64,000 nt of DNA from the NCBI GenBank assembly GCA_963678815.1, contig OY787460.1:7031503-7095502 (forward strand), read 5' to 3'. This document shows positions 2,700-50,738 of this stretch, piece after piece. The stretch's first letter is position 1; each line of letters begins with the position of its first letter. The position numbers and the translations under genes are program-made. The DNA comes from Victivallales bacterium. Its GTDB lineage: Bacteria; Verrucomicrobiota; Lentisphaeria; Victivallales; G963678815. The notes under the pieces are model-generated. The model was given only the letters and a program-made list of their open reading frames with translations, was not told the origin of the DNA and ran no database searches.

Positions 2700-2728
2700 T
2701 TCAATAATATCCCCCCACCTGTTTATCT

Positions 2729-10914: not shown

Positions 10915-10932
10915 TTGAATCCTGTGCCTTAT

Positions 10933-23551: not shown

Positions 23552-24622
23552 ATGGTTGATACCAGGATTACCTTAATTGAGAAGTTAAAGGATATCGAAA
23601 ATTTCGAATCCTGGCGTGAATTCCATGATTTGTATGCAGGCATAATCATCGGCTGGGCTTGCCGGATGGGATGCCCCCAGACACTTGCCGCAGATGTTTT
23701 GCAGGAAGTAATGGTAACTCTCTTCAGGTCGATGCCTTCGTTTGAATATACTCCCGACAAAGGCTCTTTCAGGTCGTATTTGAAGGTGATTGTCCAGCGG
23801 CGGACGATTGATGCTTTCAGGCGCGAAGGACGCTATCTCACCGTAAACGAAGATGAAAGTAACCTGTTCGATAAAATAGAGATGGAGGAAGCCACCCCAG
23901 GCGAACCTCTGGAAATGGACGGTATCTGGCTCCGGGAAATCCTTGCTCAGGCCCTTAAAGTTTCATACGGCAAGATAGACCAGCAAACTTATAAGGCTTT
24001 TTGCATGTATGTATTGGATGAACTTCCCGCGGAAGAGGTGATCAAGCGTCTCAACATCAAGCGCCTGGGAACACTGTACCAACAGAAAAGCCGGTTTCTG
24101 ATTATTCTCAAAAATTCATTTTTCACGTTGCTTTGTGAATTGTCAAACGGTGAATTCAATGTGGCAAATACGGATAGTATGGACAAGTTGTTCAACTCCG
24201 CGCTTAATGAGTTAATTCAGGGGAAAAGAGAATTGCGGAACACTTTGGTCAAGTCGGATGAATCCATCGCGGCCATTAAAAACGCACAGACAACCATGAA
24301 CCTGATCAAGAAAAATGTCCCCCCCGAAAAAGACGCTTCATACCTGTTCCTGCTGAAAAAAAACGAGCCTGGAACGTGGATCAAACTTCAGAACAAGCTG
24401 ACAATTGGCTCTTCGGATAAATGTGACGTTGTGCTTGATTATGAAGGCGTTTCAGGACTGCACTGTACCGTTGAAAAGACGGAAAAAGGTTTCATCCTCA
24501 ATGACGAAAACAGCACCAACGGAACCTTTGTCAATAAGAGGAAAATTACCGGCCCCATGATCCTGAAAGACGGTGACACCGTCCAAATAGCGCTCTGCCA
24601 CCTGGTCTTTATTACACCGTAA
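23552..24622 (+). CDS. ECF-family sigma factor (regions 2 and 4) fused to a C-terminal FHA (forkhead-associated, phosphothreonine-binding) domain
   Basis: Region 2 reads 'FHDLYAGIIIGWACRMGCPQTLAADVLQEVMVTLFRSMPSFEYTPDKGSFRSYLKVIVQRRTIDAFRREGR'. The region-4-like HTH reads 'YVLDELPAEEVIKRLNIKRLGTLYQQKSRF'. The FHA domain reads 'LTIGSSDKCDVVLDYEGVSGLHCTVEKTEKGFILNDENSTNGTFVNKRKI...DGDTVQI'. Confidence 0.7.
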   Translation: MVDTRITLIEKLKDIENFESWREFHDLYAGIIIGWACRMGCPQTLAADVLQEVMVTLFRSMPSFEYTPDKGSFRSYLKVIVQRRTIDAFRREGRYLTVNEDESNLFDKIEMEEATPGEPLEMDGIWLREILAQALKVSYGKIDQQTYKAFCMYVLDELPAEEVIKRLNIKRLGTLYQQKSRFLIILKNSFFTLLCELSNGEFNVANTDSMDKLFNSALNELIQGKRELRNTLVKSDESIAAIKNAQTTMNLIKKNVPPEKDASYLFLLKKNEPGTWIKLQNKLTIGSSDKCDVVLDYEGVSGLHCTVEKTEKGFILNDENSTNGTFVNKRKITGPMILKDGDTVQIALCHLVFITP

Positions 24623-25834
24623 TTAAAACGGCAACGGCTTCACGGACTTGCCGTCCTTGTTCCTGCGGCATTTTGAAACATCTATAAAGATCAGCCATTT
24701 ACCTTTTTTCAGACAGCTCGCTACGATGGCGTTGCCTTCTAACACCGCCCGTTTGAACATACCCCTTTCGCCGTCATTGGTCACGGTTGTGGAATTCATA
24801 ATCAGCAGGTCATGGGCGGAAACAGGGGCCATCACTTTTTTGGCGCTTCCGGCATTTTGAATAACATTGATCCCAGCCGGATAATTTTTCCTTTTCAGCC
24901 AGCAGGCCACGAATGCGTGTCCCGGAATAATGATTATTACCGGATGCAAACCGGCGTTTTCCCATATCGCGGCCTCGAGCACGGCCAGGTCAAGACAAGT
25001 TCCCTGCTTATATTTCAGCACGTCGTCATGGGAACGGATCTTCTGTCCTTTCTCGAAGGAGGCCGGAACGGTGATGTAACCGATGTCCAGATCTTTGTTC
25101 ATGGTCCGGTGAATCGCCGTCAACATGGCAAGCACACGCATTGGATCACCCGCCTGGTAATCCTCGAAGGAATCAATCCCCGATACTTCCTTGAGCCTCT
25201 TTCTGGACATGCTGACGATTTTCTTTACCGCCGCGGAGTTCGGCCTTACGAACGCACAGAGATTTTCAATGTTTTCCGGGTCCAGGAACCATTCGTTGAA
25301 GGCCAGAATGTCAACCTTCGAGGTCGATGCGTAAAGGGTTTCCTTTGAATCCTTAATGGTCACCACCAGGGCGGCCGAAAGCCGCTCTTCGACCTCCTTG
25401 AACGCCTTGTGCCGGATCGGGATATGAATGTTCCTGAGAGTTACGGATTTTCCCGCGCCGATTGACGGTATGGTCTGGGTCCATTCCCCGGCATAGTCGT
25501 CCGGACTCAACTTTACGGTCACCAGCAGGTTCGGGGTCGCGGTATTGCCGTTATTGGTAACGGTAATGCTCTTTACAAGCTGGTCGCCGAGGTGGACCAG
25601 GAAATAGTTGAACATCGGCTCATAGACAATTTTTACCTTCAGGTCTTTAGCCTTCACGGTTTCTTTCGGGGCCGGAACCGGAGCTTTTTTTACCGGAATC
25701 GGATACTTTCTCACCTTCCCCATCGGTTTAGGGTTCTTGTACATGCTGTTAAGCGCGTCCTCATAATCGTCCGCAACCGCGCCGATCACCATTGACGCCA
25801 CCGCCATCAAACCCAATACAATCTTTCTCTTCAT
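24623..25834 (-). CDS. Secreted transglutaminase-like (Cys-His-Asp papain-fold) domain protein
   Basis: It has a signal peptide. 'QGTCLDLAVLEAAIW' supplies the catalytic Cys and 'IPGHAFVACWL' the His. Its N-terminal roughly 55 aa are near-identical to the neighbouring gene 25831..28269. It overlaps the upstream gene by 4 nt. Confidence 0.5.
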   Translation of the reverse strand: MKRKIVLGLMAVASMVIGAVADDYEDALNSMYKNPKPMGKVRKYPIPVKKAPVPAPKETVKAKDLKVKIVYEPMFNYFLVHLGDQLVKSITVTNNGNTATPNLLVTVKLSPDDYAGEWTQTIPSIGAGKSVTLRNIHIPIRHKAFKEVEERLSAALVVTIKDSKETLYASTSKVDILAFNEWFLDPENIENLCAFVRPNSAAVKKIVSMSRKRLKEVSGIDSFEDYQAGDPMRVLAMLTAIHRTMNKDLDIGYITVPASFEKGQKIRSHDDVLKYKQGTCLDLAVLEAAIWENAGLHPVIIIIPGHAFVACWLKRKNYPAGINVIQNAGSAKKVMAPVSAHDLLIMNSTTVTNDGERGMFKRAVLEGNAIVASCLKKGKWLIFIDVSKCRRNKDGKSVKPLPF

Positions 25835-28269
25835 TTTTTATCCTTTATTTTATTTAACATTTCCAAAGCTGATTTTTTCCAGTATTCATCATCAGTACTA
25901 TCATAGCATTTCTGGTACCAGAATCTTGCTTTTTCATTGTTTTTTGCTATACCGTAACCGCCTTCGTAATAGATATATCCAAAATCATACATTGCATGTT
26001 CAAGTCCTTTGTTGGCGGCCTTTTCATACCATTCAACGGCCTTGACATAATTTTTTGCCACCCCCGAACCTGAATAATACATCGCACCAATAAAAAACGC
26101 AGCGCTCACGTGACCTTTGTCAGCGGCTTTTCTGTACCACTCTAATGCTTTTTCATAGTCCGAACTCAATAATCCGATGCAATACGTAGCCAAGATATTA
26201 CCATTGTCATAAGACTTTTGAAACCAGAGCATTGCCTTGACGCCGTCCTCTTTACAGCCAACGCCGGTAGTATATGCTCTTCCGGTTATATATTGAGCGG
26301 TTGCATCGCCATTTTCCGCCAAACTTAAAACACCGGGAAATGATTCCTTGCAGATTTTTTCAGTTTTTTCTTTTTTTTCTTTCTTATAATTTAAAAATCC
26401 ATACATCTTGTAATACGCTTTTAAATATATTGCGGGAGGATAATCCGCCGCAGCTGATTGCTCCAGATATTTTTTCTCGAGTTTTTTATCATATTTTTCA
26501 GCCGTTCCGTATCGATAAGCCAATGCCATTTGTCCCTGACCTGAAATAGAACTTTTTGATACATCCGGCTTAGAATATCTGGATTTACTCAAAACGGGAG
26601 CAAGGGCAACGCGGAAGCCCAGATCGAGGTGCTGGCCCGACGGCGTGCGCCAGAGACTATAAGTTGACCGGCAGCGCCTGACGATGCAGGACCAGCTGCC
26701 GCCGGAAATCACACGGTCCGAGCCAGTACTGGGCCCTACAGGATCGGTCCGGGAATTGTTGTCGAGTTTGCCAAACCAGTCATTACACCACTCCCAAACG
26801 TTCCCACTCATATCATGAATACCAAGTTCATTACCACTCTTAGACCCCACCGCGTGCGTTTTTTTACCGCTGTTGTCTTTATACCAGCCAACACGATCAA
26901 GATCATTGCTGCCGCTGTACTTATAACCTTTGCCTTTATTCCCTCCTCGCGCCGCATATTCCCATTCCGCTTCCGTAGGAAGACGATAAACATAGCCTTC
27001 CAGTAGACGGCCAGCGGCACGCTCGCGTTCCGTAAGCTTCTCGCAGAACTTTACCGCGTCATTCCAGCTTACTTGTTCTACAGGATTGCTGTTTCCTTTG
27101 AAATGACTCGGATTTGTTCCTATAAGTGTCTGGTATTCTTTTTGCGTTACTTCATACTTCCCGATCCAAAAGCCCTTGCTGATGGTTACACGATCCACCG
27201 GCCCTGTTTCAGCTGTCCCCATCATGAAGCTGCCGGAAGCCACGTAGACTAATTTCATTCTGAGTTCCGGCACCGAAAATGACTTATCCTTGGCTGACTT
27301 TTTTTTCGTTTTATTGATTTTCGTGATACCCGCCTGATCCATCCAGTCTTTACCATAAAAGCGTTTAATATGCTCATCCGTGTAGAAAACAACGCCAAAA
27401 TTTTTGAAATTACGGGGTCTGCTCCAGGCGATAGGAACAATATCGCCCTTTCCGCTTAAACCGCCTCTATAGACGTAATCAAGCGTTTTTTCAGTAAGTG
27501 TTTCACCGGGTTTTATGGGCTTTGTGCCAGTGCTTGGACTTGTAAATATTTTCAAATCTTCCACATAACCCTCTTTTATCAAGAGATTCAGTCCGGCGGC
27601 GCCGTCAGGCGTTGGGAATTTATCATTATGGTCAAGAGCATATTGCATCAAAATAAGGCCAATACAAAGCAAATCGCTGGAAGCATTACTTCTCGTTGTT
27701 TCAAGTTTGTGCTGGGCCTGATGGATCTTGGCGATGCCTGCTTTTCCCAGCCAGTCTTTACCGGTGAAACTTTTAACATTTCCGTCCGTGTAGAGGACAT
27801 TTCCGTAATCCTCGAATTTATCAGAATTGTCCCAGGCGATAGCCGCAATACCGTCACTTTTTTTCAATCCGCCTCTATAGATATAACTATATAAATTTAT
27901 GTCCGAAGCTTTTTCTTTCAGATATTTTTCCTTTTTCAATAATTCCAGTCCTTCATAGTCATTGAGAAAAGGATATTTACCGTCATGGTCCGCGGCATAA
28001 TTATTCAGGGCCGAACCGATTTGTTTCAGGTTACGGATACTTATTTTTTTTATTTTGTCCAAATATGATCTGATATTGTCATTGTCGGCAGATTTTTTCG
28101 GAGTTGCCTCCGGGAGCGTTTTTTTAACGGGAACCGGATGCTTCCTGACTTTACCTATTGGCTTGGAATTCTTGTACATGCCATTAAGCGCGTCCTCGTA
28201 ATCGTCCGCAATTACGCCAGCCGCAACCGACGCCACCACCAGCAAACTCAAGACGATTTTTCTATTCAT
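25831..28269 (-). CDS. Secreted protein with two leaderless DUF1559-like (H-X9-DG) domains, an FGE-sulfatase (SUMF1-like) domain that retains both active-site-position cysteines, and C-terminal Sel1 repeats
   Basis: It has a signal peptide. 'LKQIGSALNNY...YTDGNVKSF' and '...FYTDEHIKRF' are DUF1559-like. The FGE domain reads 'WIGKYEVTQKEYQ...LPTEAEWEYAARGG...GNVWEWCND...GGSWSCIVRRCRS'. Sel1 repeats read 'AMYYSGSGVAKNYVKAVEWYEKAANKG'. Confidence 0.7.
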   Translation of the reverse strand: MNRKIVLSLLVVASVAAGVIADDYEDALNGMYKNSKPIGKVRKHPVPVKKTLPEATPKKSADNDNIRSYLDKIKKISIRNLKQIGSALNNYAADHDGKYPFLNDYEGLELLKKEKYLKEKASDINLYSYIYRGGLKKSDGIAAIAWDNSDKFEDYGNVLYTDGNVKSFTGKDWLGKAGIAKIHQAQHKLETTRSNASSDLLCIGLILMQYALDHNDKFPTPDGAAGLNLLIKEGYVEDLKIFTSPSTGTKPIKPGETLTEKTLDYVYRGGLSGKGDIVPIAWSRPRNFKNFGVVFYTDEHIKRFYGKDWMDQAGITKINKTKKKSAKDKSFSVPELRMKLVYVASGSFMMGTAETGPVDRVTISKGFWIGKYEVTQKEYQTLIGTNPSHFKGNSNPVEQVSWNDAVKFCEKLTERERAAGRLLEGYVYRLPTEAEWEYAARGGNKGKGYKYSGSNDLDRVGWYKDNSGKKTHAVGSKSGNELGIHDMSGNVWEWCNDWFGKLDNNSRTDPVGPSTGSDRVISGGSWSCIVRRCRSTYSLWRTPSGQHLDLGFRVALAPVLSKSRYSKPDVSKSSISGQGQMALAYRYGTAEKYDKKLEKKYLEQSAAADYPPAIYLKAYYKMYGFLNYKKEKKEKTEKICKESFPGVLSLAENGDATAQYITGRAYTTGVGCKEDGVKAMLWFQKSYDNGNILATYCIGLLSSDYEKALEWYRKAADKGHVSAAFFIGAMYYSGSGVAKNYVKAVEWYEKAANKGLEHAMYDFGYIYYEGGYGIAKNNEKARFWYQKCYDSTDDEYWKKSALEMLNKIKDKK

Positions 28270-28522
28270 TTTCCGCCTTTATCTTATTTAACATTCTCAA
28301 GGCATTTTCATATCCATTATCATAAGCCTTCTGAAACCAGTATTTTGTTTTCAAATGATCTTTTGCTATGCCCAGCCCATCATAAAATAACACTCCAATG
28401 CTATACATCGCGGTTTTACTACCTTTCCCGATGGCCTTTTTATACCATTTATTGCTTTGGTATAGTCCTTTGCAACTCCCTAAACACCATCGTAGTATAA
28501 ACATAATACTTTGCGGATGCAT
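28262..28522 (-). other. Out-of-frame continuation of the kinase 28449..31118 C-terminus. These are the terminal Sel1 repeats, displaced by a frameshift that may be authentic or a sequencing error.
   Basis: The alternative-frame peptide 'KWYKKAIGKGSKTAMYSIGVLFYDGLGIAKDHLKTKYWFQKAYDNGYENALRMLNKIKAENE' matches the canonical C-termini of paralogs (…WFQKSYDN…MLNKL / …WYQKAYDNGDKNAKEKLDKLK). The in-frame ending '...KYYVYTTMVFRELQRTIPKQ' does not match them. Confidence 0.6.
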
Positions 28523-31118
28523 CGCCTTTATCGGCTGCTTTTTTATACCATTTCATCGCTTTAGTATAATTTTTCCCCACGCCATAACCGCAACGGTAAA
28601 AATTTCCTATCTTACACATTGCATGAGTATCACCTTTGTCCGCGGCTTTTCTATAAAACTCTAATGCTTTTACATAGTCCTTTTTATTGAACCATATATT
28701 TCCGGTATCATTCAAGGATGAGATTTCTATTTCCATTATAACCTGCTTGGGGATGCCAGCTTTCTCCATCCAATCTTTACCGGTAAAGCTTTTTATTCTT
28801 CCGTCAGAATAGAAAACGCTACCGAAATTCTTAAAATTGCCGGGTTTGTCCCAGGCAACAGGTTTGCCTTCAGAATCTTTTGCCATCAAACCATTCCGAT
28901 AAACATAATCCACGGTTGTTTCTGTCCATGCTTCACCTTTTTTTGCCGGTTTGGTATTAGTATTGGGGCAAGTTAAAATCCTGGGATCTTTTATGTAGTA
29001 TTCTTTCCTCAATACATCCAGACCGGCCGCACCGTTGGTGGCTGGAAAGTGCTGAGCAAAGTCATCAGAATACATTTTCAGAGCGAGTCCAATCTTTTTT
29101 AAATTTATTCTCGCAGCCTCCAACTTACGTGTTGTTTTAATGTCGTTATCAGTTTTTTCTACCGCTTTGGCAATGAGGGTTACGGCTTTCCTGTAGGATG
29201 ACAGGGCTTTATCCCAGTCTTCGGAGGATACGGCGTTGTCGGCGCTGGATACTGCAAGCCGGGCTTCGGCCCAGTCCGCGCCGCCGAATTTGTCGATATC
29301 GGCGCGTTTCACTTTAGCGAGTTGGGCTTCATATTGTTTTTTGATAATAGCCAGTGCGGAAGTTCCAATAGCATAGTTCTTTGCGTGTTTGTATTCCTTT
29401 TCAGACGCCGTGAAGCTTTTCTTAGCTCCCGAAAAATCACCTTTTGCAAGCTTGGCCTTGCCATCATCTTCAAGGCTCTTTGCGCTGTTCCAGATACTTT
29501 TCGCCAGACTCGAAGCGTTGCTCTTTTCCGCGCTTTGTTTCTCCTGTTCCGATCTTTTTGAGGATACCATTGCCGAATTTCGTTCCGAATCGAGCTTTAC
29601 AAGCTTTCTGCATCCGGTTATTACTTCCTGGTATTTACCTAAAGCATTGCCGTAAGATTTGGCGCCAAACAAGGTTTTTGCGGTATTGAGTTTCAGTTTC
29701 AGAGTATCTTTTTTCTTTTGAAATCCGTGTTCGGGAGAAATGCGGCTTAACCTTTCGAACACCATTTCCGCGCGGCTCTTGACCGGAGCGGTTTCGGCGA
29801 GTCCGGCTTTTTCCTTGATCCTGTCCTGCATCGTCCGGGCGTAGGAGTTTTGAGGGTCGATCGACAGTATTTCCGAGGCCGCCGCCGAAGCCGCCGACAA
29901 GTCCCCTTTTCTGAATGAAGACTTCAGTTTCTTTTTAAGGGAATTGAGTTTTTCCTGCGTCTCTTTCGCGAGCTGTTCCTGACGCTGGCGTTCTTCCTCT
30001 GCCGCTTTTTCCCTGGCCAATTGTTCGGCTTTGGACTTCTGGACTTCCCGGTATTTGGTGTAGCCGAAATATCCGCCAGCGCCTATAAGGACAAGAATAA
30101 TCAGCAGAACCGCAATTATTTTGCCGCCGCCGGAGGATTTAGAGGCGCGTTTTACTTTGACTTTTCCCCTCATAGCATTGATAAACTCGTCACAGGAAGC
30201 GTAGCGGTCTGAGCCTTTTTTGGCTAACGCCTTCATCAAAAGCGCGTTTTGTTTTTTATTCAATTGGGGCAAAGGTTCCGGCATCCGGTTTTCCACCAGG
30301 TTCAACATCAAACCGGCGTCGCCCGATTCGAAAACCGACTGGAACGGTACGCCGCCGCTGATCAACTCATAAAGCATACAGGCCAGCGCGTACTGATCGG
30401 TTTCGGGTCCCTGGTTTTTACCCGCCCACTGCTCGGGGGCCATGTAGGGGCGCGTACCGGAGGTGTCGAACTGTTCCCGGGAGACCCGGCCCATCGAACT
30501 GCGGATTTCGGCGGCAAGCCCGAAGTCGAGAACCTTAACTTCTCCATCCGGGGAAATCATGATATTCGACGGTTTTACGTCGCGATGGATGATCTTTTTC
30601 GAATGCGCGAAGTCCAACGCCTGGGCGACTTTTCCGCAGATGTCCAGAGCTTTGTCCAGCGGTACTTTTTTATCCGGGAACTGTTTGCGCCAGTTGGACA
30701 GTGTCGAGCCATTGACATACTCCATCACCACCAGATAACTGTCGGGAAAAACCCGTAAATGTTCCTGGGCGGCGGCGTCAACCTTTTCCACCTTGTGGAG
30801 ATGTTCCAGCGAGGCTATGTATTGGTGTTTCAGCTTGGAGACCATTGCAAAGTTGGACCGGACGTTTTCCAGCTCTTCCGGAACCGCCGAGATCATCGGC
30901 GGCAATACTTTCAATGCGACATTGATCCCTGCCACGGTATCATGCGCCCGGTATACCGCGCCGAACCCGCCAGCTCCCAGTTGCTCGACAAGTTCATAAC
31001 GGTCAATGCGCCCTAACGATCCGGGAGAATTCCCGTTTTCGGTAAGCATGTTGCCAATGGATAAATCCAGATTTTCGCCACTTTCCGTTTTAAAATCGCC
31101 AATATTACTATTATCCAT
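28449..31118 (-). CDS. Hanks-type Ser/Thr protein kinase (receptor-like) with one TM helix, a coiled-coil/TPR-like ectodomain, a leaderless DUF1559-like domain and Sel1 repeats. The 3' end is frameshifted and the true C-terminus is probably at 28262.
   Basis: Kinase motifs GAGGFGAVYRA, VALKVL, IIHRDVKPSNIM, DFGLA and GTRPYMAPEQ are all present. The TM helix is IIAVLLIILVLIGAGGYFGY. The DUF1559-like segment reads 'LKKIGLALKMY...FYSDGRIKSF'. The N-terminal roughly 650 aa are identical to gene 47603..50713. Confidence 0.8.
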   Translation of the reverse strand: MDNSNIGDFKTESGENLDLSIGNMLTENGNSPGSLGRIDRYELVEQLGAGGFGAVYRAHDTVAGINVALKVLPPMISAVPEELENVRSNFAMVSKLKHQYIASLEHLHKVEKVDAAAQEHLRVFPDSYLVVMEYVNGSTLSNWRKQFPDKKVPLDKALDICGKVAQALDFAHSKKIIHRDVKPSNIMISPDGEVKVLDFGLAAEIRSSMGRVSREQFDTSGTRPYMAPEQWAGKNQGPETDQYALACMLYELISGGVPFQSVFESGDAGLMLNLVENRMPEPLPQLNKKQNALLMKALAKKGSDRYASCDEFINAMRGKVKVKRASKSSGGGKIIAVLLIILVLIGAGGYFGYTKYREVQKSKAEQLAREKAAEEERQRQEQLAKETQEKLNSLKKKLKSSFRKGDLSAASAAASEILSIDPQNSYARTMQDRIKEKAGLAETAPVKSRAEMVFERLSRISPEHGFQKKKDTLKLKLNTAKTLFGAKSYGNALGKYQEVITGCRKLVKLDSERNSAMVSSKRSEQEKQSAEKSNASSLAKSIWNSAKSLEDDGKAKLAKGDFSGAKKSFTASEKEYKHAKNYAIGTSALAIIKKQYEAQLAKVKRADIDKFGGADWAEARLAVSSADNAVSSEDWDKALSSYRKAVTLIAKAVEKTDNDIKTTRKLEAARINLKKIGLALKMYSDDFAQHFPATNGAAGLDVLRKEYYIKDPRILTCPNTNTKPAKKGEAWTETTVDYVYRNGLMAKDSEGKPVAWDKPGNFKNFGSVFYSDGRIKSFTGKDWMEKAGIPKQVIMEIEISSLNDTGNIWFNKKDYVKALEFYRKAADKGDTHAMCKIGNFYRCGYGVGKNYTKAMKWYKKAADKGDASAKYYVYTTMVFRELQRTIPKQ

Positions 31119-31143
31119 ATATTTATTCCATCCTGAATTATAA
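29160..31143. repeat. Copy 1 of a roughly 2 kb direct repeat (copy 2 at 48755-50738). About 1.8 kb is identical and a junction of about 180 nt is about 88% identical.
   Basis: Identical six-frame ORFs recur at a constant offset of 19595 nt (for example 29322..29561 and 48917..49156). I compared the junctions directly. Confidence 0.85.
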
Positions 31144-31148
31144 AAAAA

Positions 31149-32852
31149 TCAGCTCTGGTTGGTGGAAGTGTTTTTATTTCCTGAACCCGCGGCGGCGCTT
31201 CTGGCATTGGCGTCGAGCGACTTGTCCAGGACCTGTTCTAAGCGGTCAGCGTTTTTCTCCATTAACTCGACTTTTTCATTTACCATATCTGCCTTAATCT
31301 TGCTGGCATTGGCTTCAGCGTTGGCTTTGGCAATATCGGCCACGGATTTAGCCAGTTCAGCGTTGTCACCGGCCTGTATTGCAAGCATCTGCTCGGGGGC
31401 CATGTTGGCCATCATTTCTTTGAGCTTCATATCATTGCCGGTCTTGATCGCTTCCTGATACTGCTTGAATTCTTCCGGGGAAAGAACCGAGGCCAGTGCT
31501 TCAACGGACTGTCCGGTGCGGTTAGCAATTTTTGTTTTCTCCTCTTCAGCATCGAGCGCTGAACGCTGGGCGCGAAGGTCCAGGCCCATTTCAGCCTTTT
31601 TGATTTTATCTTCGTGCGTAGCCATGTCCTGACTGCGCATTTGGGCGAAATCCTTGTCCTTTTCGGCGCGATCGAAATCGTTTAATTTCGCCTCTTTGCC
31701 CATGTTGTGGTCAAGTTCGATATTTTCGTTTTCCCTGCGGAAATCATCGGCGTCACGCTTAAGTTCCTGGGCTTGTTTCTGTTTTTTCTGTTCGAGCTCA
31801 TGGTTGAGGTCCGCGAGAATTTTCTTGAATTCCACGTCCAACTGTTCTTTGTTCAGATCGTATTCGTAAGCGAGCTGATCGAGCTGTGCCTGAAGGTCTT
31901 TTTCGGTTTTGACGGTATCAAGCTTATCGTCAGAGACGATCCGCCTGGCGCGTTTTTCCAGAACTGCTTTCCGGGCGTCCGCTTCGATATTACCGGCTTT
32001 CTCGCACAACTCCTCATAGGTTTTGCCGAAGAAGGTGACGGCGGCGCAACGGACAAGGACCATGCCGTACCTTTCGGCGGCCCTGGACATAGTCAAGGCA
32101 AGGCGGTTTTCGAAAGCCTCGCGGACATGTGCCGATTTCACCAGGTCGTCGATACTGGCTTCAAGGCACATGCTTCTCACGGCTTCGGTAACTTCATGCT
32201 CCAGGCATTTCCACAAGTTATCATAGCGGACTTCGTTTGATTCCGCGTTTTTTTCCTGGTCTGATTCCGTGTGAACGATCTGGCGTTTGTCCTTCAGGAC
32301 GTTTTCGATCAATGCAAGGGCTTTTTCCGGGTTGAAACGGAAAATAGCCTCGGTGTAAAAGTTAAGCTTCATATCCTCCTTGGAGCGAAGCCCGAGGACG
32401 TTGAAAGGAAGGGCCACATCGCCTGCGTCAACCAAAAAGAAAGACTTATATGCCGGTTCGGAAAAAACACGTTTAAGCAGATTTCCGTCCACGTTGTATG
32501 CGCCGGGTTTCAGAACATCGGTGATCTTGCCGTTTTCCATCACGATGGCTTTGGTGCCTTCCTCAATAATAAGTTTGCCGTCGAGACGCCGCTTAATGGC
32601 GGGAAGGTCAACCCGCTGAAGAAACACTCCGGCCACACGGCGGATCGATCCGTTTACCACCAGGTCGCGCTCTTCCGGGTACAAGGCAGCCCGGCAGCTG
32701 TGACAGAATTCCGCTTCGACGCCTACCCATGAATTGCAGTTGTGACATCTAGTCCATCCGCCGGGAGCGCCGGTGCCGCATTTATTACAGAATCTTGCCT
32801 GTTTGGGAACCCGGTTGCCGCATTTCTCACATTTGTCCGCGAATATACCCAT
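31149..32852 (-). CDS. Double zinc-ribbon plus SPFH/band-7 (flotillin-like) domain protein with a long C-terminal coiled coil. It is the first gene of the kinase operon.
   Basis: The N-terminus has 'CEKCGNRVPKQARFCNKCG' and 'CHNCNSWVGVEAEFCHSCR'. An SPFH-like segment follows. The last roughly 250 aa are a charged E/K/A-rich coiled coil. Confidence 0.5.
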   Translation of the reverse strand: MGIFADKCEKCGNRVPKQARFCNKCGTGAPGGWTRCHNCNSWVGVEAEFCHSCRAALYPEERDLVVNGSIRRVAGVFLQRVDLPAIKRRLDGKLIIEEGTKAIVMENGKITDVLKPGAYNVDGNLLKRVFSEPAYKSFFLVDAGDVALPFNVLGLRSKEDMKLNFYTEAIFRFNPEKALALIENVLKDKRQIVHTESDQEKNAESNEVRYDNLWKCLEHEVTEAVRSMCLEASIDDLVKSAHVREAFENRLALTMSRAAERYGMVLVRCAAVTFFGKTYEELCEKAGNIEADARKAVLEKRARRIVSDDKLDTVKTEKDLQAQLDQLAYEYDLNKEQLDVEFKKILADLNHELEQKKQKQAQELKRDADDFRRENENIELDHNMGKEAKLNDFDRAEKDKDFAQMRSQDMATHEDKIKKAEMGLDLRAQRSALDAEEEKTKIANRTGQSVEALASVLSPEEFKQYQEAIKTGNDMKLKEMMANMAPEQMLAIQAGDNAELAKSVADIAKANAEANASKIKADMVNEKVELMEKNADRLEQVLDKSLDANARSAAAGSGNKNTSTNQS

Positions 32853-32962: not shown

Positions 32963-35900
32963 CTATTTAAGCTTATCTAACTTTTCCTTGGCATTTTTAT
33001 CACCGTTGTCATATGCCTTCTGATACCAGCGCTTTGCCTCGGTGAGGTCTTTTGTGACTCCCCAGCCATTCTTGTACATATCCGCGATATAATTCATTGC
33101 GTCCGTATTGCCCATGCCGGCGGCTTTCTTATACAACTCCATGGCTTTTTCGTAGTCTTTTTCAACCCCATTCCCCCAATAATACATATTCCCGACGCTT
33201 CTTATCCCGTTCGGATCTTCTTTGTCAGCGGATTTTCTGTACCATTTCAGAGCTTCGACGTAGTCTTTTTTTACTCCATATCCCCAATAATACATATTCC
33301 CGACATAAACCATTGCTTTCGTATCACCGTTATCCGCGGCTTTTTTATACCACTTAATAGCTTCCAGGTCATCTTTTTTGACCCCTTCTCTGCCATTATA
33401 ATATATCAGCGCGATATAATTCATTGCTTTGGTATTACCTTTATCCGCGGCTTTTTTATACCACTTAACAGCTTCGTGACCGTCCTCTTTAACCCCATAA
33501 CCGTTAAGATACATATTCCCGATATAAATCATGGCTTTGATATTGCCATTTGCCGCGGCTTTTTTATACCACTTCAGGGCTTCGGGATTATCTTCTTTAA
33601 CGCCGCGTCCATTATAATACATGTGTCCAATGCCAGCCATCGCATCAGGATTACCTTTATCGGCGGCTTTCCGGTAGTATTCCAAAGCTTTTGAATACTC
33701 TTTTTTGTCATAATGCTTTTTCCCGGTTTCATACCAGGCGTCGGCGTTTTTCTTATCGATCAGTTTACTTACGCCTGCTTTTTCCATCCAGTCTTTGCCG
33801 GAAAAGCCTGAAACATGGCCATCAGCATAAAGGACGTTTCCGAAGTCCTTGAAGTTTCCGTGCTTATCCCAGGCGACAGGGGTATCGCCGCCTTTGCCGT
33901 AAACCGCGCCTCCCCGGTAAACATAATCCACAGTGGCTTCGGTTAATTTTTCTCCGGGTTTCGCGGGTTTGGTGTCCGTAGCCGGACATATGAATATTTT
34001 CGGTTCGGTGAGATATTCCTCTTTTCTCAACAATTCAAACCCGGCGGCTCCATCGGGAGCCGGAAACTTGTTTTTATAGTCCATTGCGTACATGCACAGC
34101 GCCAAGCCGATCTGTTTCAGATTGTTCGCATCGCTTATCTTTTTAGCTTTCAACCGGGCGTGTGCAAGCGCTGACTCTATGGCTTGCCGCATTTCCGCGC
34201 TGATTTCTACAGACGCGGATACCTCCATGCCCTGATTGATAAATTTTACGGTTTCAGTCCCGCCCGGCAGCCTGCAGATTTGATTCAGAACCGCATTCAC
34301 CTGATTCAGATGCGAACTCAACATTCTCAGACTGTCGCTTGAAGCGCAAACGGCGTTCAGGCGCAAAATGTAACCGTTTTGGTTATTTTTCACCGACAGC
34401 AAGACATGTTTCGTCAGCGGAATCTTGTTCTTTTCCGCCAACGGTTCCGGTATTTTCGCGGCGACGCTGACAAATTCCGGTTTGCCCCCGGCAAGTTTTT
34501 TCAGTTCGCTTGAACCGTCAGCGGTTCTTTGATAGAGGGATTTGATCAGCAACTCTTTCGTGCCGAATGAAAGAATATTATCCGGGAGCTGGGCAATATA
34601 CAGTTTTACATTATTATCATCATAGAACAGATAAATATCCCTGGAATTATATTTTTCTCTGGTTTCGGCAACGTCTCCCATATCGCTGACGGCTCTTTTC
34701 AAGTCGAACGGACGGTTGAATTGAGCGTTGACGATAAATGGGATTGACGGCTTTTCCGGATTGATAATTCCGGGCAGGACAACGCCAACGGAAACACTTT
34801 CAATATTTTCAGGATTAATCCCATATTCATTAAGCTTATTTTTAAATTTGGGATTAACCTGTAAGAACTCCTGGTATTTTGAAAATATTTCTTTAATCGA
34901 GAGTAATTTCCGCACATCAATAGACGCAACAACATTGCAGTTGACGGGCAGCATGTCGGTTAGAGTAATTTTTTTAGGGGGAGCAGGCTCTTTCTTTTGA
35001 ACGCGTTTTTGTTTTGCGGCTTCCGGCTTTTTCTGAATTTCCTTTTTCTGAGGAATAACGATTTTTTCCTGTTGAACGTAATTTTGTTCTTCCGCGACCG
35101 GCGGTTTTTTCAGACTCCCGGTATTTACTGTATCGGATTTACTGGTAAGCATGGCGATAAATATTCCGGCAAATACCGCAACTACTCCCGCCAGACATAA
35201 TCCGCCCCATATCAGCAGGCTTTTCTTTCCGGAACCATTCCCGGTTTTATTCATCGATTCAGCTTTTTTACGGCCAACGTTTGAAACACCCGGCGCTTTT
35301 ACCGCTTTTATGTCGTTGGTCAGGGCGGCGACGGAATCGTAACGGTCTGCGGCTTCCGGCTCCAGGCACTTGAGGATGATGCTGTCCCATTGTTTGTTAT
35401 GGCCGAGTTCGGACGGCAGTTTAAAGCGTCCTTTCGCCTTTTTGCCGGTCAGCATGCGATAGATTATCAAACCTAAAGCATAGATGTCGCTTCTGGCGGT
35501 TGCCTCCCCGCCTTCCTGCTGTTCCGGGGCCATGTATTCGTAAGTTCCCAAAAGGGAACCCGTGGTGGTCCTGGACGACTGCCCTGAGCCTTTCATAGTG
35601 GCCATGCCGCCGATCGACAAGTCCGCAGATTGCGCCCCACCCATGGTCAGGCGGATCGACTGGTCGATCATATTGCGCAGGTAATCGGACCCGACCACTT
35701 TCGCCAGTCCGAAATCGGCGATCTTGACATTATTTCTGGAATCCATCAGAATATTGGATGGTTTCAGGTCGCGGTGAACCACGCCTTCCTGGAAGTTGTG
35801 GGCATAATTCAGGGCGTCGCAGATTTGCAGCGATAATTCCCTGACGTCTTTATCGCTGAAACTTCCTTTCTCCCGGATTTCATCTTCAAGGGTTTTCGGC

Positions 35901-36232
35901 TTGCCCTCGTCGCTTTCCACATAATCCATAACCAGATAGTAAAGCCCATCATTTGCGCCGATGAAATTGACATGGACAATATTGGGGTGGCTCAAATCAG
36001 CCATGACCCTTGCTTCGATTTTGAACCTGTCGATGAAACTGCCGTTAGCCGAAAGATCCGGAGGAAGAACTTTGAGCGCATAGCGTTTGTGCATCTGAAT
36101 ATTTTCCACCATGTACACTTCGCCCATGCCGCCTTTGCCCAGCAAAGCCAATACCCGGTATTCGCCAATAACTGATCCTGTTTTTAAAATTGTTCCGACC
36201 TCTTCCGACATTTTCGGTAAAATCCTTATCAT
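32963..36232 (-). CDS. Hanks-type Ser/Thr receptor kinase with a TM helix, a leaderless DUF1559-like domain and Sel1 repeats
   Basis: Kinase motifs GKGGMGEVY, ALKVL, VVHRDLKPSNILMD, DFGLAKV and GTYEYMAPEQ. The TM helix is LLIWGGLCLAGVVAVFAGIFIAML. The DUF1559-like segment reads 'LKQIGLALCMYAMDY...LYADGHVSGF'. About 8 Sel1 repeats follow. Confidence 0.8.
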   Translation of the reverse strand: MIRILPKMSEEVGTILKTGSVIGEYRVLALLGKGGMGEVYMVENIQMHKRYALKVLPPDLSANGSFIDRFKIEARVMADLSHPNIVHVNFIGANDGLYYLVMDYVESDEGKPKTLEDEIREKGSFSDKDVRELSLQICDALNYAHNFQEGVVHRDLKPSNILMDSRNNVKIADFGLAKVVGSDYLRNMIDQSIRLTMGGAQSADLSIGGMATMKGSGQSSRTTTGSLLGTYEYMAPEQQEGGEATARSDIYALGLIIYRMLTGKKAKGRFKLPSELGHNKQWDSIILKCLEPEAADRYDSVAALTNDIKAVKAPGVSNVGRKKAESMNKTGNGSGKKSLLIWGGLCLAGVVAVFAGIFIAMLTSKSDTVNTGSLKKPPVAEEQNYVQQEKIVIPQKKEIQKKPEAAKQKRVQKKEPAPPKKITLTDMLPVNCNVVASIDVRKLLSIKEIFSKYQEFLQVNPKFKNKLNEYGINPENIESVSVGVVLPGIINPEKPSIPFIVNAQFNRPFDLKRAVSDMGDVAETREKYNSRDIYLFYDDNNVKLYIAQLPDNILSFGTKELLIKSLYQRTADGSSELKKLAGGKPEFVSVAAKIPEPLAEKNKIPLTKHVLLSVKNNQNGYILRLNAVCASSDSLRMLSSHLNQVNAVLNQICRLPGGTETVKFINQGMEVSASVEISAEMRQAIESALAHARLKAKKISDANNLKQIGLALCMYAMDYKNKFPAPDGAAGFELLRKEEYLTEPKIFICPATDTKPAKPGEKLTEATVDYVYRGGAVYGKGGDTPVAWDKHGNFKDFGNVLYADGHVSGFSGKDWMEKAGVSKLIDKKNADAWYETGKKHYDKKEYSKALEYYRKAADKGNPDAMAGIGHMYYNGRGVKEDNPEALKWYKKAAANGNIKAMIYIGNMYLNGYGVKEDGHEAVKWYKKAADKGNTKAMNYIALIYYNGREGVKKDDLEAIKWYKKAADNGDTKAMVYVGNMYYWGYGVKKDYVEALKWYRKSADKEDPNGIRSVGNMYYWGNGVEKDYEKAMELYKKAAGMGNTDAMNYIADMYKNGWGVTKDLTEAKRWYQKAYDNGDKNAKEKLDKLK

Positions 36233-43739: not shown

Positions 43740-45338
43740 TTAATCATTCAGGAAATACTGTTTAAACGTAGTAACTTCGGCAATTCCCGACTCAGGGGGT
43801 AATTTTGTTTCAGGCTCGAGCCAATACCATTTCTCATTTTCTTCAACCAGGGCAAACGAATCATGCTTATACCGGATGGCCCATTTTTTCGAGGTATTTA
43901 CCTCTACCGCGGTCAAGGGAAGCCATTTATTGATGATGATGTATGATTCGGGAATACTGTCATATCTGGAAACGGCAATTCCGGAAATAGCGTCTTTAAC
44001 CTGATTTTTTGTCAAGTCATGTACCGAGTCAAATGACGAACTGCCCCGTTCAATATCATTCAGATAGGTTTTGTAAACCCTTAATTTCAAAACAATGTTA
44101 TTGTTGACGGCAATACCGCCCAAGACAAGATCGATTTCCGATTGTACGGGAATGGACTGTTTTTTTGCCCCGATCCGCTGATTGTCGATAAATGAGCCGT
44201 TGGAAGAAGTGTCCGTAACCCAGGCCATATCATCGTCCACCCCTATTTTGCAGTGCAGTCCGCTGATCCGGCAGTTTTCGTAAATCATTCTCTGCCGGTC
44301 CCACGGCGGACTTTCATCCGGGCCGGGAAGTTTTCTGATAATAACGTCGGCGTCCCGGGAGCGTCCGAAAGTAATTTCTCCGTTCAGCAGATGGATTCGC
44401 CGTCCTGAATTCGTGAACAGCGTCAAACTGCTGTATTTTTTGCTCGGGGCGGGAGGAATCGTCAATTTGGGCCTTTGCTGATATCCTATCCCGGATAGCG
44501 GAATAGCGGAAAAGAGGATAAGTTCCGTCCACAGGTCGGTTTTTTTCAGACTGTCGAGCAGGTCGTTCAGCGAACCGCCGGAATCCTGGGCGTTTCGCAG
44601 AATGTCCAGGGCCAAATTCGGATCGCCGCCATAGCCTTCCTGCTTGATGTCGCCGATAGAGATTGTTAAATTGTCCAGAATTTTGTCCTTTGACGTATGC
44701 TGGGAATACACATCTATGGTGATCTGCTGATCAAAGCACATCAATTGTCCGTTCATTTCGTAGGAAAAATAAAAATCAACGGCCTGGGCCGTACCGATAT
44801 TGGCAAGTTTAGGTTTGTAGTTTACATAAACTTCCCTCGGCGCTGAAAGCCGGGCAAAACGCAGCGGCTGTTCCTTGAAGGATGCTTCATAGGGAAATTT
44901 CAGGAACAATCGAAAATTAGCTGCGTTCCGCGATTCCCTGGAAACCGGGGTAAACCTGAAGGATATCGATGAAGTGGTTTCCGCGATAAAAATAGCCGAT
45001 CCCTTGTTCCATTCACACTGGAAATGGGGACAATCCGAGCTGAATCCGCCGTATACCGGTTCAACTTTCGGTGCGGGTCCAGGCTGCCGGACGTCATTGC
45101 CGGTCAGGGGATTATCACTGTCAACCAGGGTCTTCTGCATTGACACGATCTTTTCCCCAACGGTATCATCGGTTTTTGCAGTTTGATTCCGTGCGCTTTC
45201 ATTTACAGTATCAGGTTTTCCTTCAACTGTTTCTGAAAGTTTTTGTTCAGCTCCTGCCGATGTCAGCTTTGTTCCGCAGCTCATACAAACGACATCCGAG
45301 GCGCCAACTGAACTTTCACATTCAGGGCAGACAGGCAT
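43740..45338 (-). CDS. N-terminal zinc-ribbon plus C-terminal FHA domain protein
   Basis: The zinc ribbon is 'CPECESSVGASDVVCMSCG'. The FHA domain reads 'GEITFGRSRDADVIIRK...ISGLHCKIGVDDDMAWVTDTSSNGSFIDNQRI'. Confidence 0.7.
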   Translation of the reverse strand: MPVCPECESSVGASDVVCMSCGTKLTSAGAEQKLSETVEGKPDTVNESARNQTAKTDDTVGEKIVSMQKTLVDSDNPLTGNDVRQPGPAPKVEPVYGGFSSDCPHFQCEWNKGSAIFIAETTSSISFRFTPVSRESRNAANFRLFLKFPYEASFKEQPLRFARLSAPREVYVNYKPKLANIGTAQAVDFYFSYEMNGQLMCFDQQITIDVYSQHTSKDKILDNLTISIGDIKQEGYGGDPNLALDILRNAQDSGGSLNDLLDSLKKTDLWTELILFSAIPLSGIGYQQRPKLTIPPAPSKKYSSLTLFTNSGRRIHLLNGEITFGRSRDADVIIRKLPGPDESPPWDRQRMIYENCRISGLHCKIGVDDDMAWVTDTSSNGSFIDNQRIGAKKQSIPVQSEIDLVLGGIAVNNNIVLKLRVYKTYLNDIERGSSSFDSVHDLTKNQVKDAISGIAVSRYDSIPESYIIINKWLPLTAVEVNTSKKWAIRYKHDSFALVEENEKWYWLEPETKLPPESGIAEVTTFKQYFLND

Positions 45339-50713: not shown

Positions 50714-50738
50714 ATACTTATTCCATCTTGAATTATCT
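48755..50738. repeat. Copy 2 of the roughly 2 kb direct repeat (copy 1 at 29160-31143)
   Basis: See copy 1. Confidence 0.85.

What the first reader, a model, noticed from the sequence alone, without database searches (positions are those of the whole stretch)
29160..31143. A 2 kb near-perfect direct repeat gives two kinase genes identical kinase/TM/coiled-coil modules with different sensor C-termini
The 5' roughly 1.95 kb of genes 28449..31118 and 47603..50713 are the same sequence. About 1.8 kb is identical and the distal roughly 180 nt junction is about 88% identical. Downstream of that, one gene encodes a leaderless DUF1559 domain plus Sel1 repeats, and the other a coiled-coil extension plus an FGE-like domain. 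Identity also continues about 25 nt upstream of the start codon. One copy sits inside an operon and the other has its own promoter. This looks like recent gene conversion or cassette shuffling of sensor domains onto a fixed signalling chassis. The 19.6 kb direct repeats could also mediate deletion or inversion of the intervening island. An assembly artifact is an alternative explanation.
Basis: seen in the sequence. Interest (0 to 1): 0.65.

Follow-up and report, generated by a model that had tools for sequence, protein, structure and literature searches.

The report
Gene-converted receptor kinase paralogs
Two membrane receptor-type Ser/Thr kinase genes 19.6 kb apart share a real 2-kb repeat whose central 1.8 kb was very recently made identical by recombination between gene copies, an ordinary process shown here in an unusually clean, multi-copy example.

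Summary
The repeat is real. Window 29139-31141 matches 48734-50736 at a fixed offset of 19,595 nt. It has three strata: 23 nt upstream of the ATG (2 mismatches), a 1,797-nt core covering codons 1-599 (1 synonymous mismatch), and a 183-nt tail covering codons 600-660 (21 mismatches, mostly synonymous). Homology then stops. The step in divergence is highly significant (p about 1e-20). This fits a recent gene-conversion tract nested in an older duplication.

The shared module is an intact Hanks-type kinase, one TM helix and a confidently modelled all-alpha stalk. The C-termini differ. K1 has a compact leaderless DUF1559-type domain plus Sel1 repeats, and its end is frameshifted and truncated. K5 has a helical extension plus an FGE/C-type-lectin domain.

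The same 8.6-Mb contig holds two more near-identical copies outside the window, and a 70% copy (K3) lies inside it. K5 equals K1 in its 5' part and P0121 in its 3' part, so at least three recent exchanges occurred. Neighbouring genes are unique, which rules out a larger segmental duplication.

Homologs in two other genomes are targets of diversity-generating retroelements. No such element is in this window. Verdict: confirmed, well explained, a new member of known kinds, of moderate interest.

The parts
29139..31141 (-). Repeat copy A, the 5' 2.0 kb of K1. It comprises a 23-nt leader (31119-31141), a recently homogenised core (29322-31121) and an older, diverged tail (29139-29321).
48734..50736 (-). 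Repeat copy B, the 5' 2.0 kb of K5. It comprises a leader (50714-50736), a core (48917-50716) and a tail (48734-48916).
28449..31118 (-). K1, 889 aa. Hanks kinase (aa 41-307; GAGGFG48, VALK67, HRD178, DFG198, APE227), TM helix at aa 334-352, all-alpha stalk to aa 659, compact leaderless DUF1559-type domain (about aa 673-800), and 2 Sel1 repeats.
28277..28512 (-). Degenerate remainder of K1's Sel1 array. Repeat homology continues in the two other frames past the annotated stop, so there are at least 2 frameshifts plus an in-frame TAG. The ancestral ORF end (NKIKAENE*) overlapped the ATG of gene 6.
47603..50713 (-). K5, 1036 aa. Same kinase, TM and stalk, then a helical extension and an FGE-sulfatase (C-type-lectin-fold) domain at aa 813-1029.
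36238..41316 (-). K3, 1692 aa. The third in-window copy of the same chassis (about 70% aa identity, 51-86% nt identity by 90-nt windows; unrelated upstream region), followed by 21 Sel1 repeats.
32963..36232 (-). K2, 1089 aa. It has a different kinase domain (about 28% identity), but its extracytoplasmic DUF1559-type domain plus Sel1 is 53% identical to K1's sensor. This records an older sensor swap.
45476..47338 (-). K4, 620 aa. Kinase plus FGE-sulfatase, immediately downstream of K5. It is a singleton at 90% identity in the genome.
25831..28269 (-). Gene 6, 812 aa. Signal peptide, DUF1559-type domain, FGE-sulfatase and 4 Sel1 repeats, with no kinase. A secreted protein built from the same sensor modules.
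31149..32852 (-). Zinc-ribbon plus SPFH/Band 7 gene. Its stop codon lies 30 nt upstream of K1's ATG. The repeat ends 7 nt short of this stop codon.
43740..45338 (-). Zinc-ribbon plus FHA protein, a candidate phospho-threonine reader for the kinases. It is syntenic with the homolog in L005.
23552..24622 (+). Sigma-70 region 2 plus FHA protein, a candidate transcriptional output of the island. It is syntenic with the homolog in L005.

Best explanation
K1 and K5 are two members of a family of receptor-type Hanks Ser/Thr kinases. Each has a cytoplasmic kinase, one TM helix, a roughly 300-aa all-alpha extracytoplasmic stalk and a variable C-terminal ligand-binding head. At least five members sit on one 8.6-Mb chromosome. 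An older duplication gave K1 and K5 a common 2.0-kb 5' module, running from 23 nt upstream of the ATG to codon 660, which is the end of the stalk fold. That module is now about 10% diverged at its two edges. Very recently, homologous recombination without exchange of flanks (interlocus gene conversion) overwrote 1.8 kb of it, from about 3 nt upstream of the ATG to codon 599, leaving one synonymous difference. The family as a whole is a patchwork. K1, K5 and P0003 share an identical core. K1 and P0003 share one tail type. K5 and P0121 share the other tail type and an identical FGE head. At least three recent exchanges are therefore required. The most parsimonious reading is that K5 was P0121-like throughout and received the K1/P0003-type 5' part. 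Shown here: the strata, the mosaic, the intact kinase motifs, the topology and the domain content. Inferred: the RecA-type mechanism, the direction of transfer, and the functional consequence. That consequence would be that sensors with different heads drive an identical kinase, so several inputs feed one output, probably through the FHA proteins and the sigma-70-FHA protein encoded in the same island. Also inferred is that recombination between the two direct repeats could delete or duplicate the 19.6-kb interval.
For: Three divergence strata of 8.7%, 0.06% and 11.5%, with Fisher p = 1.5e-20 and the breakpoint at codon 599/600. Tail differences are mostly synonymous, so constraint alone cannot explain the identical core. 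P0001 (K1), P0002 (K5), P0003 and P0121 all lie on one 8,611,128-bp contig, and P0003 and P0121 are not encoded in the window. Mosaic: K5 has 0 aa differences from K1 in columns 1-612 and 0 from P0121 in columns 574-1063, and K1 differs from P0003 at 4 positions before column 661. Eight neighbouring island proteins found in the collection are singletons at 90% identity, so identity is confined to the kinase genes. The upstream flanks of K1, K5 and K3 are unrelated beyond 23 nt. Homology ends where the confidently modelled stalk (pLDDT 93.5) ends. The same 5'-module homogenisation, visible at third codon positions, occurs between tandem kinase-FGE paralogs in unrelated contigs (L035, L004, L007).
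Against: DNA is available only for K1, K5 and K3, so the mosaic involving P0003 and P0121 is seen at protein level only. Donor and recipient cannot be assigned. No reads are available to confirm each copy with its unique flanks. No closely related genome exists in the searched collections (the next homolog is 55% identical), so the ancestral state and the presence or absence of the 19.6-kb interval could not be examined. The functional statements are untested.
Confidence: 0.8

Rival explanations
1. A single recent duplication. A 2-kb kinase-TM-stalk module was copied once from one gene and fused in front of a different sensor, with no later conversion.
For: Both copies start at the same point 23 nt upstream of the ATG and end at a fold boundary. 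Module fusion clearly happened earlier in this family.
Against: One event predicts uniform divergence along the copied segment. Observed divergence is 0.06% in the core and 9-11% at both edges, with mostly synonymous changes. The four non-synonymous tail differences of K5 are shared with P0121, so they pre-existed in another gene and did not arise after a recent copy.
Confidence: 0.07
2. An assembly or polishing artefact. The two copies are truly more different, or one is spurious, and multi-mapped reads homogenised or mis-joined them.
For: Near-identical 2-kb repeats are a classic trouble spot. No reads could be examined. The look-up of encoding contigs holds no independent assembly of these genes.
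Against: The source is a single 8.6-Mb contig. Each copy runs in frame into a different, independently supported sensor domain and into unique flanks. A core SNP and graded variants (P0121 about 96%, P0003 N-terminal differences) are preserved rather than collapsed. Polishing cannot turn 10% divergence into identity across exactly 1.8 kb with sharp edges. Long ORFs across the window argue for a low error rate.
Confidence: 0.07
3. A programmed sensor-switching system. The constant chassis would act as a recombination platform for moving sensor cassettes between expressed and silent loci, like pilin or polymorphic-toxin cassettes, possibly replacing the DGR that relatives use.
For: A constant N-terminal part with variable C-terminal heads. 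A decayed K1 head and a kinase-less sensor gene lie next to it. Homologs in two other genomes are DGR targets, so head diversity is evidently selected in this family. There were several recent exchanges.
Against: No recombinase, transposase, RT, Avd or template repeat is present in the window. There are no promoterless cassette fragments carrying junction homology. The recent tract homogenises the constant part rather than moving a head. The K5 and P0121 heads are identical, so there is no sign of active diversification. Everything observed is explained by ordinary homologous recombination.
Confidence: 0.05

Closest known systems
Interlocus (ectopic) gene conversion and concerted evolution of bacterial paralogs. 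Examples are tufA/tufB and rRNA operons (own knowledge), PE_PGRS pairs (PMC1762029), and the prokaryote-wide survey in PMC6053082.
   Same: A tract of near-identity nested within older, more diverged homology. Flanks are not exchanged. Different segments of one gene group with different paralogs.
   Different: The converted genes here are large multidomain receptor kinases. The tract covers only the signalling chassis and leaves unrelated sensor heads untouched. At least four copies take part.
DGR variable proteins with a Ser/Thr kinase fused to an FGE-sulfatase/C-type-lectin domain (category b12 of Wu et al. 2018, PMC5758913; cyanobacterial STK-CLec targets and their dispersed paralogs without an RT, Vallota-Eastman et al. 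2020, PMC7517822).
   Same: K5, P0121 and P0003 have the kinase-to-C-terminal-FGE architecture. Their homologs P0004 (L002) and P0009 (L005) have bona fide TR/VR pairs with adenine-specific mismatches next to an RT plus HRDC or Avd gene. Paralogs lacking a nearby RT are also described in the literature.
   Different: No RT, accessory gene or TR lies in this 64-kb window, and none from this genome appears among the top RT homologs. The repeat under study lies at the 5' end, not at the VR. These proteins are membrane-anchored with an extracytoplasmic head, whereas most cyanobacterial examples are predicted to be cytosolic.
C-terminal cassette displacement in polymorphic toxin systems such as Rhs and CdiA (Zhang et al. 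2012, PMC3482391).
   Same: A conserved N-terminal body, diverse C-terminal domains, and recombination through the conserved part as the means of reassortment.
   Different: These are sensor heads, not toxins. There are no immunity genes and no orphan cassettes with junction homology. The analogy is evolutionary only, and this is not a member of that family.
Receptor-type Hanks kinases such as PknB/PrkC with PASTA domains (own knowledge).
   Same: A cytoplasmic Hanks kinase, a single TM helix and an extracytoplasmic ligand-binding region, with FHA-domain partners encoded nearby.
   Different: The stalk is a roughly 300-aa helical-hairpin domain with no significant solved structural neighbour. 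The heads are FGE/CLec, DUF1559-type or Sel1 arrays rather than PASTA.

Membership tests
Hanks-type Ser/Thr protein kinase (Pfam PF00069) | Profile match above the curated cut-off | tested here: met
   152 bits against a cut-off of 31.7, for both K1 and K5
Hanks-type Ser/Thr protein kinase (Pfam PF00069) | Catalytic motifs present: Gly-rich loop, VAIK lysine, HRD, DFG, APE | tested here: met
   GAGGFG48, VALK67, HRD178, DFG198, APE227
Hanks-type Ser/Thr protein kinase (Pfam PF00069) | Phosphotransfer activity | not testable with these tools
   Needs biochemistry
Interlocus gene conversion tract | A near-identical segment flanked on both sides by homologous but clearly more diverged sequence | tested here: met
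   8.7% / 0.06% / 11.5% divergence
Interlocus gene conversion tract | A statistically significant breakpoint, also visible at synonymous sites | tested here: met
   Fisher p = 1.5e-20; maximum chi-square 0 of 2,000 permutations; 11 of 15 changed tail codons (600-660) are synonymous
Interlocus gene conversion tract | Different segments of one gene group with different paralogs | tested here: met
   K5 equals K1 in the 5' part and equals P0121 in the 3' part, at protein level only
Interlocus gene conversion tract | Flanking genes are not duplicated, so this is a patch rather than a segmental duplication | tested here: met
   Eight neighbouring proteins are singletons at 90% identity; upstream flanks are unrelated
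Interlocus gene conversion tract | Non-reciprocal transfer with an identified donor and recipient | not testable with these tools
   Needs DNA of P0003 and P0121, or related strains
DGR variable (target) protein | C-terminal FGE-sulfatase/C-type-lectin domain | tested here: met
   K5 FGE-sulfatase, 170 bits, aa 813-1029
DGR variable (target) protein | A cognate template repeat differing from the VR only at adenines | tested here: not met
   No TR-like copy of K5's 3' end in the window.
DGR variable (target) protein | An RT plus Avd or HRDC accessory gene nearby | tested here: not met
   No Pfam RT hit and no tblastn hit with E < 0.7 in the window. No RT from the 8.6-Mb contig in the top 120 homologs, which is inconclusive for the genome as a whole.
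DGR variable (target) protein | Homologs elsewhere are demonstrable DGR targets | tested here: met
   L002: 17 of 17 mismatches at TR adenines. L005: 14 of 15.
DUF1559 / H-X9-DG pseudopilin-like domain (PF07596), for K1's head | Profile match above the curated cut-off | tested here: not met
   16.3 bits against a cut-off of 23.3 (E 0.011), and only profile positions 14-41 are matched
DUF1559 / H-X9-DG pseudopilin-like domain (PF07596), for K1's head | Significant homology to proteins that carry PF07596 | tested here: met
   Nine hits, E 6e-31 to 1e-16, 40-50% identity, all PF07596
DUF1559 / H-X9-DG pseudopilin-like domain (PF07596), for K1's head | N-terminal prepilin or membrane segment, and the H-X9-DG motif | tested here: not met
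   The N-terminal segment is absent in K1 and K2 (leaderless). DG is kept but His is replaced by Phe.
Cassette-switching system (pilin or polymorphic-toxin type) | Promoterless partial cassettes sharing junction homology with the expressed gene, or a dedicated recombinase | tested here: not met
   No chassis fragments beyond K1, K3 and K5. No recombinase or transposase domains.

The most novel reading that the evidence does not exclude
The constant 2-kb chassis is kept identical across four or more loci because it serves as a recombination platform. This would let the population reassort or replace sensor heads (FGE/CLec, DUF1559-type, Sel1) on one kinase output. It would be a recombination-based counterpart of the DGR hypermutation that homologs in two other genomes apply to the same receptor family. 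K1's decayed head and the kinase-less gene 6 would then be spent or silent cassettes.
Probability: 0.1. Interest if true: 0.7.

Novelty: new member of a known kind. Interest (0 to 1): 0.38.

Why it matters
It is a clean, datable example of concerted evolution acting on only one half of multidomain bacterial receptors. The signalling chassis is held identical across several loci while the ligand-binding heads stay different. That predicts several inputs converging on one kinase specificity and possible hetero-oligomers through identical TM and stalk segments. It also predicts a chromosome region prone to a 19.6-kb deletion or duplication. The same receptor family is hypermutated by DGRs in two other genomes, which marks these heads as binding surfaces under diversifying pressure. 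The family would therefore suit a comparison of two routes to receptor diversity. Practically, it warns annotators and assemblers that these kinase families contain kb-scale exact repeats.

Tried and rejected
(1) Exact-protein look-ups of K1, K5, P0003 and P0121 in the contig index found nothing. There was therefore no independent assembly and no DNA for the two out-of-window paralogs.

(2) The genome-contig scan with the chassis found one distant Verrucomicrobiota locus only. The source genome and close relatives are not in that collection, so the presence or absence of the 19.6-kb interval could not be compared.

(3) A DGR as an explanation of the repeat was rejected. DGRs rewrite about 130 nt at the 3' end, not 1.8 kb at the 5' end. 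The window has no RT, Avd, HRDC or TR. The L002 RT probe returned no hit from the 8.6-Mb contig among the 120 hits listed.

(4) A larger segmental duplication was rejected, because all neighbouring proteins are singletons at 90% identity.

(5) Purifying selection as the cause of identity was rejected, because synonymous sites are identical in the core but diverged in the tail.

(6) The Pfam 'TssO' hit at aa 333-408 was dismissed as a TM-plus-charged-helix composition match (30-32 bits, at threshold).

(7) A Foldseek search of the stalk model against the PDB gave no significant match.

(8) The metagenome scan mostly returned generic kinase domains. It was useful only for showing that tandem kinase-FGE clusters and 5'-module similarity are common.

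(9) Literature searches for gene conversion among bacterial Hanks kinases, and for the source organism, were unproductive. The nearest labelled homologs are Victivallaceae and Lentisphaeria MAGs.
Full report
OBSERVATION. A whole-window repeat search and an ungapped comparison at offset 19,595 show that 29139-31141 and 48734-50736 are direct copies on the same strand. Both are the 5' parts of minus-strand genes: K1 (28449..31118, 889 aa) and K5 (47603..50713, 1036 aa). On the coding strand the repeat has three strata.
- A 23-nt leader directly upstream of the ATG, with 2 mismatches (8.7%).
- Codons 1-599, 1,797 nt, with one synonymous mismatch (0.06%).
- Codons 600-660, 183 nt, with 21 mismatches (11.5%). 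Eleven of the changed codons are synonymous and four are not.
After codon 660 there is no homology. Upstream of the leader the flanks are unrelated: K1's leader follows the TGA of the preceding gene plus a T7 run, while K5's leader follows a 345-nt intergenic region. The step in divergence is not chance. Fisher p is 1.5e-20, and a maximum chi-square scan puts the breakpoint at codon 599/600 (window 29321/29322), with no permutation out of 2,000 reaching the observed value.

WHAT THE SHARED MODULE IS. Pfam finds a Hanks-type protein kinase at residues 41-307 of both proteins (152 bits). The Gly-loop, VALK, HRD, DFG and APE motifs are intact, and there is a single hydrophobic helix at 334-352. 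An AlphaFold model of residues 320-660, using 34 family sequences, is confident (mean pLDDT 93.5, pTM 0.77) and all-alpha. One helix of about 70 residues contains the TM segment and continues outward, followed by helical hairpins. The last helix ends at residue 659, which is where K1/K5 homology stops. Foldseek finds no significant solved neighbour, only weak TPR-like similarities. The inferred topology is kinase inside, stalk and head outside.

THE DIFFERENT HEADS. K5 continues with a helical extension and an FGE-sulfatase (C-type-lectin-fold) domain at 813-1029 (170 bits). K1 continues with a roughly 125-aa domain that Pfam scores only below threshold for DUF1559/SBP_bac_10 (E 0.011). However, this domain is 40-50% identical (E 6e-31 to 1e-16) to free-standing 212-235-aa proteins that carry PF07596 and are labelled 'prepilin-type processing-associated H-X9-DG protein' or 'DUF1559' in Victivallaceae MAGs. 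K1 lacks their N-terminal membrane segment and has Phe in place of the motif's His. 'Leaderless DUF1559 domain' is therefore a fair description. Two Sel1 repeats follow.

The stretch 28512-28462 contains an in-frame TAG, and 28462-28277 ends in '...NKIKAENE*', overlapping the ATG of the next gene. K1's head therefore carries at least two frameshifts and one nonsense codon and has lost about 80 residues.

THE FAMILY IS LARGER THAN TWO. A search with the shared 653 residues returned K1 and K5 themselves and a third protein, P0003 (1003 aa, 99% identical), all on one contig of 8,611,128 bp. The 90% cluster of K5 contains a fourth, P0121 (1041 aa), on the same contig. Neither is encoded in the window. 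Inside the window, K3 (36238..41316) has the same chassis at about 70% amino-acid identity, followed by 21 Sel1 repeats.

The four close copies form a mosaic.
- K5 has no amino-acid difference from K1 in alignment columns 1-612.
- K5 has no difference from P0121 in columns 574-1063. All 38 K5/P0121 differences lie in columns 3-573.
- K1 differs from P0003 at only four N-terminal positions before column 661.
- P0003 shares two of those N-terminal states with P0121 and has a different FGE head, roughly 80% identical to K5's by eye from the alignment.
No tree can explain this, so at least three recent exchanges are needed. The most parsimonious reading is that K5 was P0121-like along its length and received the K1/P0003-type 5' 1.8 kb. 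Direction cannot be proved without the DNA of the other two copies.

WHY GENE CONVERSION AND NOT THE ALTERNATIVES. A single recent duplication predicts uniform divergence. Instead a near-zero core is flanked on both sides by divergence of about 10%, and K5's four non-synonymous tail states already exist in P0121. Selection cannot make synonymous sites identical. A larger segmental duplication is excluded. K4, K3, gene 6, the Band 7 gene, the FHA gene, the amidohydrolase and two further genes are each the sole member of their 90% cluster on that contig.

An assembly artefact is unlikely for four reasons.
- The source is one 8.6-Mb contig.
- Each copy continues in frame into a different, independently supported domain.
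- A core SNP and graded variants are preserved.
- Long intact ORFs across the window indicate low error.
Without reads the artefact cannot be formally excluded, and I give it about 7%. No recombinase, transposase or retroelement gene is present in the window. The simplest mechanism is RecA-type homologous recombination between paralogs. The 5' end of the shared region coincides with the end of available homology, as expected for such tracts. Because the copies are direct repeats, crossing-over between them would delete or tandemly duplicate the 19,595-bp interval. A deletion would leave K5's upstream region, the chassis and K1's head, and would remove K2, K3, K4 and the FHA gene. It could not invert the interval.

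OLDER MODULE SHUFFLING. K1's head is 53% identical (E 5e-69) to the extracytoplasmic part of its neighbour K2, whose kinase domain is only about 28% identical to the chassis. Gene 6 (25831..28269) is a secreted protein with a signal peptide, a DUF1559-type domain, an FGE domain and Sel1 repeats, but no kinase. The heads have therefore been reassorted repeatedly, at domain boundaries, over a longer time scale.

CONTEXT AND RELATIVES. From 23.5 to 50.7 kb the window is a signalling island. It contains five Hanks kinases (K1-K5), a sigma-70-region-2/FHA protein, a zinc-ribbon/FHA protein, a zinc-ribbon/SPFH protein and an LpoB-like protein. A Victivallaceae MAG contig (L005) is partly syntenic. 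It has a sigma-70/FHA gene (41% identity, E 2e-96), a chassis-FGE kinase (P0009), a zinc-ribbon/FHA gene (34% identity, E 9e-98) and another kinase. Between them lie a reverse transcriptase, a bAvd gene and a template repeat. That repeat differs from the 3' end of the kinase gene at 15 positions, 14 of them adenines in the template.

The closest homolog outside the source genome, P0004 (55% identity, locus L002), is likewise followed by an HRDC gene, an RT and a template repeat, with 17 of 17 mismatches at template adenines. In two other genomes, then, this receptor's FGE tip is hypermutated by diversity-generating retroelements. This architecture is already catalogued (PMC5758913 category b12; PMC7517822, which also describes dispersed kinase-CLec paralogs lacking an RT).

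In the present window there is no RT, accessory gene or template. K5 and P0121 have identical tips. K5 and P0003 differ in that region mainly at the positions that are adenine-encoded in the two templates. Past DGR activity in this lineage is possible but not shown. The DGR does not explain the 5' repeat.

GENERALITY. Among 85 loci fetched, 24 carry two or more kinase domains, often kinase-FGE genes in tandem. Several have elevated identity confined to the 5' kinase module: L035 (963 nt, 93.7%), L007 (795 nt, 89%) and L004 (about 1.1 kb, 87%). L004 also has a mosaic of 5' and 3' affinities among its five kinases. In L035 third-codon-position differences are 8-18% in the module and 28-70% in the rest, and about 100 nt of leader is shared. 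Short-read metagenome assemblies would break at exact 2-kb repeats, so more extreme cases are probably under-sampled. The window's repeat is therefore a very recent instance of a recurrent process in this gene family.

COMPARISON WITH WHAT IS KNOWN, AND NOVELTY. Mechanistically this is interlocus gene conversion and concerted evolution, which is well known in bacteria (PMC6053082, PMC1762029). The proteins are receptor-type Hanks kinases related to known DGR targets. The evolutionary logic of a constant body with exchangeable C-terminal heads resembles polymorphic toxin loci (PMC3482391). The defining features of that family, orphan cassettes and immunity genes, are absent. I found no description of conversion among bacterial Hanks kinase paralogs in the searchable literature, but nothing here needs a new mechanism. 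I rate it a new member of known kinds, with interest 0.38. The most novel reading not excluded is that chassis identity is maintained as a platform for head reassortment, functionally replacing the DGR of relatives. I give that reading a probability of about 0.1.

LIMITS. There is no read data. There is no DNA for P0003 or P0121, and no close relative genome. Promoter and operon statements rest on spacing and consensus matches only. All functional statements are inference.

Noticed in passing
window 28277-28512 (- strand): K1's Sel1 array continues beyond its annotated stop in the other two frames, with at least 2 frameshifts and an in-frame TAG. The annotated C-terminal 20 residues are out-of-frame. 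The ancestral ORF end overlapped the ATG of gene 6. K1's sensor head is decaying while its chassis is pristine.
   Followed up: yes
L002 3510-3638 / 5333-5461 and L005 9245-9381 / 10904-11040: The two nearest homologs of K5 in other genomes are targets of complete DGRs (RT plus HRDC, or RT plus bAvd). Their TR/VR mismatches fall at template adenines in 17 of 17 and 14 of 15 cases. L005 is also syntenic with the window's FHA and sigma genes. L073 has RT-like hits next to kinase-FGE genes as well.
   Followed up: yes
window 47606-47740 (K5 3' end), compared with P0003: In the region equivalent to a DGR variable region, K5 and P0121 are identical. K5 and P0003 differ mainly at the positions that are adenine-encoded in the L002 and L005 templates. 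This is compatible with past DGR diversification in this lineage but is not proof of it.
   Followed up: partly
window 25685-25837 vs 28120-28272: The start of gene 6 and the start of the next gene (24623..25834, weak transglutaminase-like hit) share a 153-nt repeat at 78%. It covers the end of the preceding Sel1 gene and an 80%-identical signal peptide (MxRKIVL...ADDYEDALN.MYKN). This looks like a trace of tandem duplication of a gene-junction unit. Gene 6 itself is signal peptide, DUF1559-type domain, FGE and Sel1, without a kinase.
   Followed up: partly
L035 2338-3300 vs 5071-6022; L004 6463-7555 vs 9968-11061 and 2668-3529 vs 14511-15393; L007 6464-7256 vs 9412-10204: Unrelated metagenomic contigs with tandem kinase or kinase-FGE genes show elevated identity restricted to the 5' kinase module. 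In L035 this is also seen at third codon positions and in about 100 nt of leader. Partial homogenisation of these paralogs appears to be recurrent.
   Followed up: partly
window 8048-8220, 11457-11629, 62941-63034 (- strand): Three small genes with a prepilin N-methylation motif, one with a weak DUF1559 hit (7512..8255, 10933..11664, 62362..63051), share 94-173-nt 5' repeats at 74-83% identity. They sit next to glycoside hydrolase genes (rhamnosidase, GH20-like, CBM9 proteins). A fourth such gene lies at 54499..55359.
   Followed up: no
window 33743-34195 (K2) and 28704-29138 (K1): In the kinase-fused DUF1559-type domains the His of the H-X9-DG motif is replaced by Phe (GNFKN/GNFKD), whereas all free-standing homologs keep GNH.
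   Followed up: no
window 36363-38535 (K3): There are 21 Sel1 repeats with 108/111-nt periodicity at 60-84% nt identity. This long internally repetitive array is itself a likely substrate for expansion and contraction.
   Followed up: no
L002 28-169 and 1-56, 365-420, 2669-2724, 6038-6131, 6862-6917: The DGR-bearing contig carries a 7-nt tandem array (TTATTGG) and multiple copies of a palindromic REP-like element (TTGCGTTGGGTCAACGCAAGCTAC), one of them inside the kinase gene.
   Followed up: no
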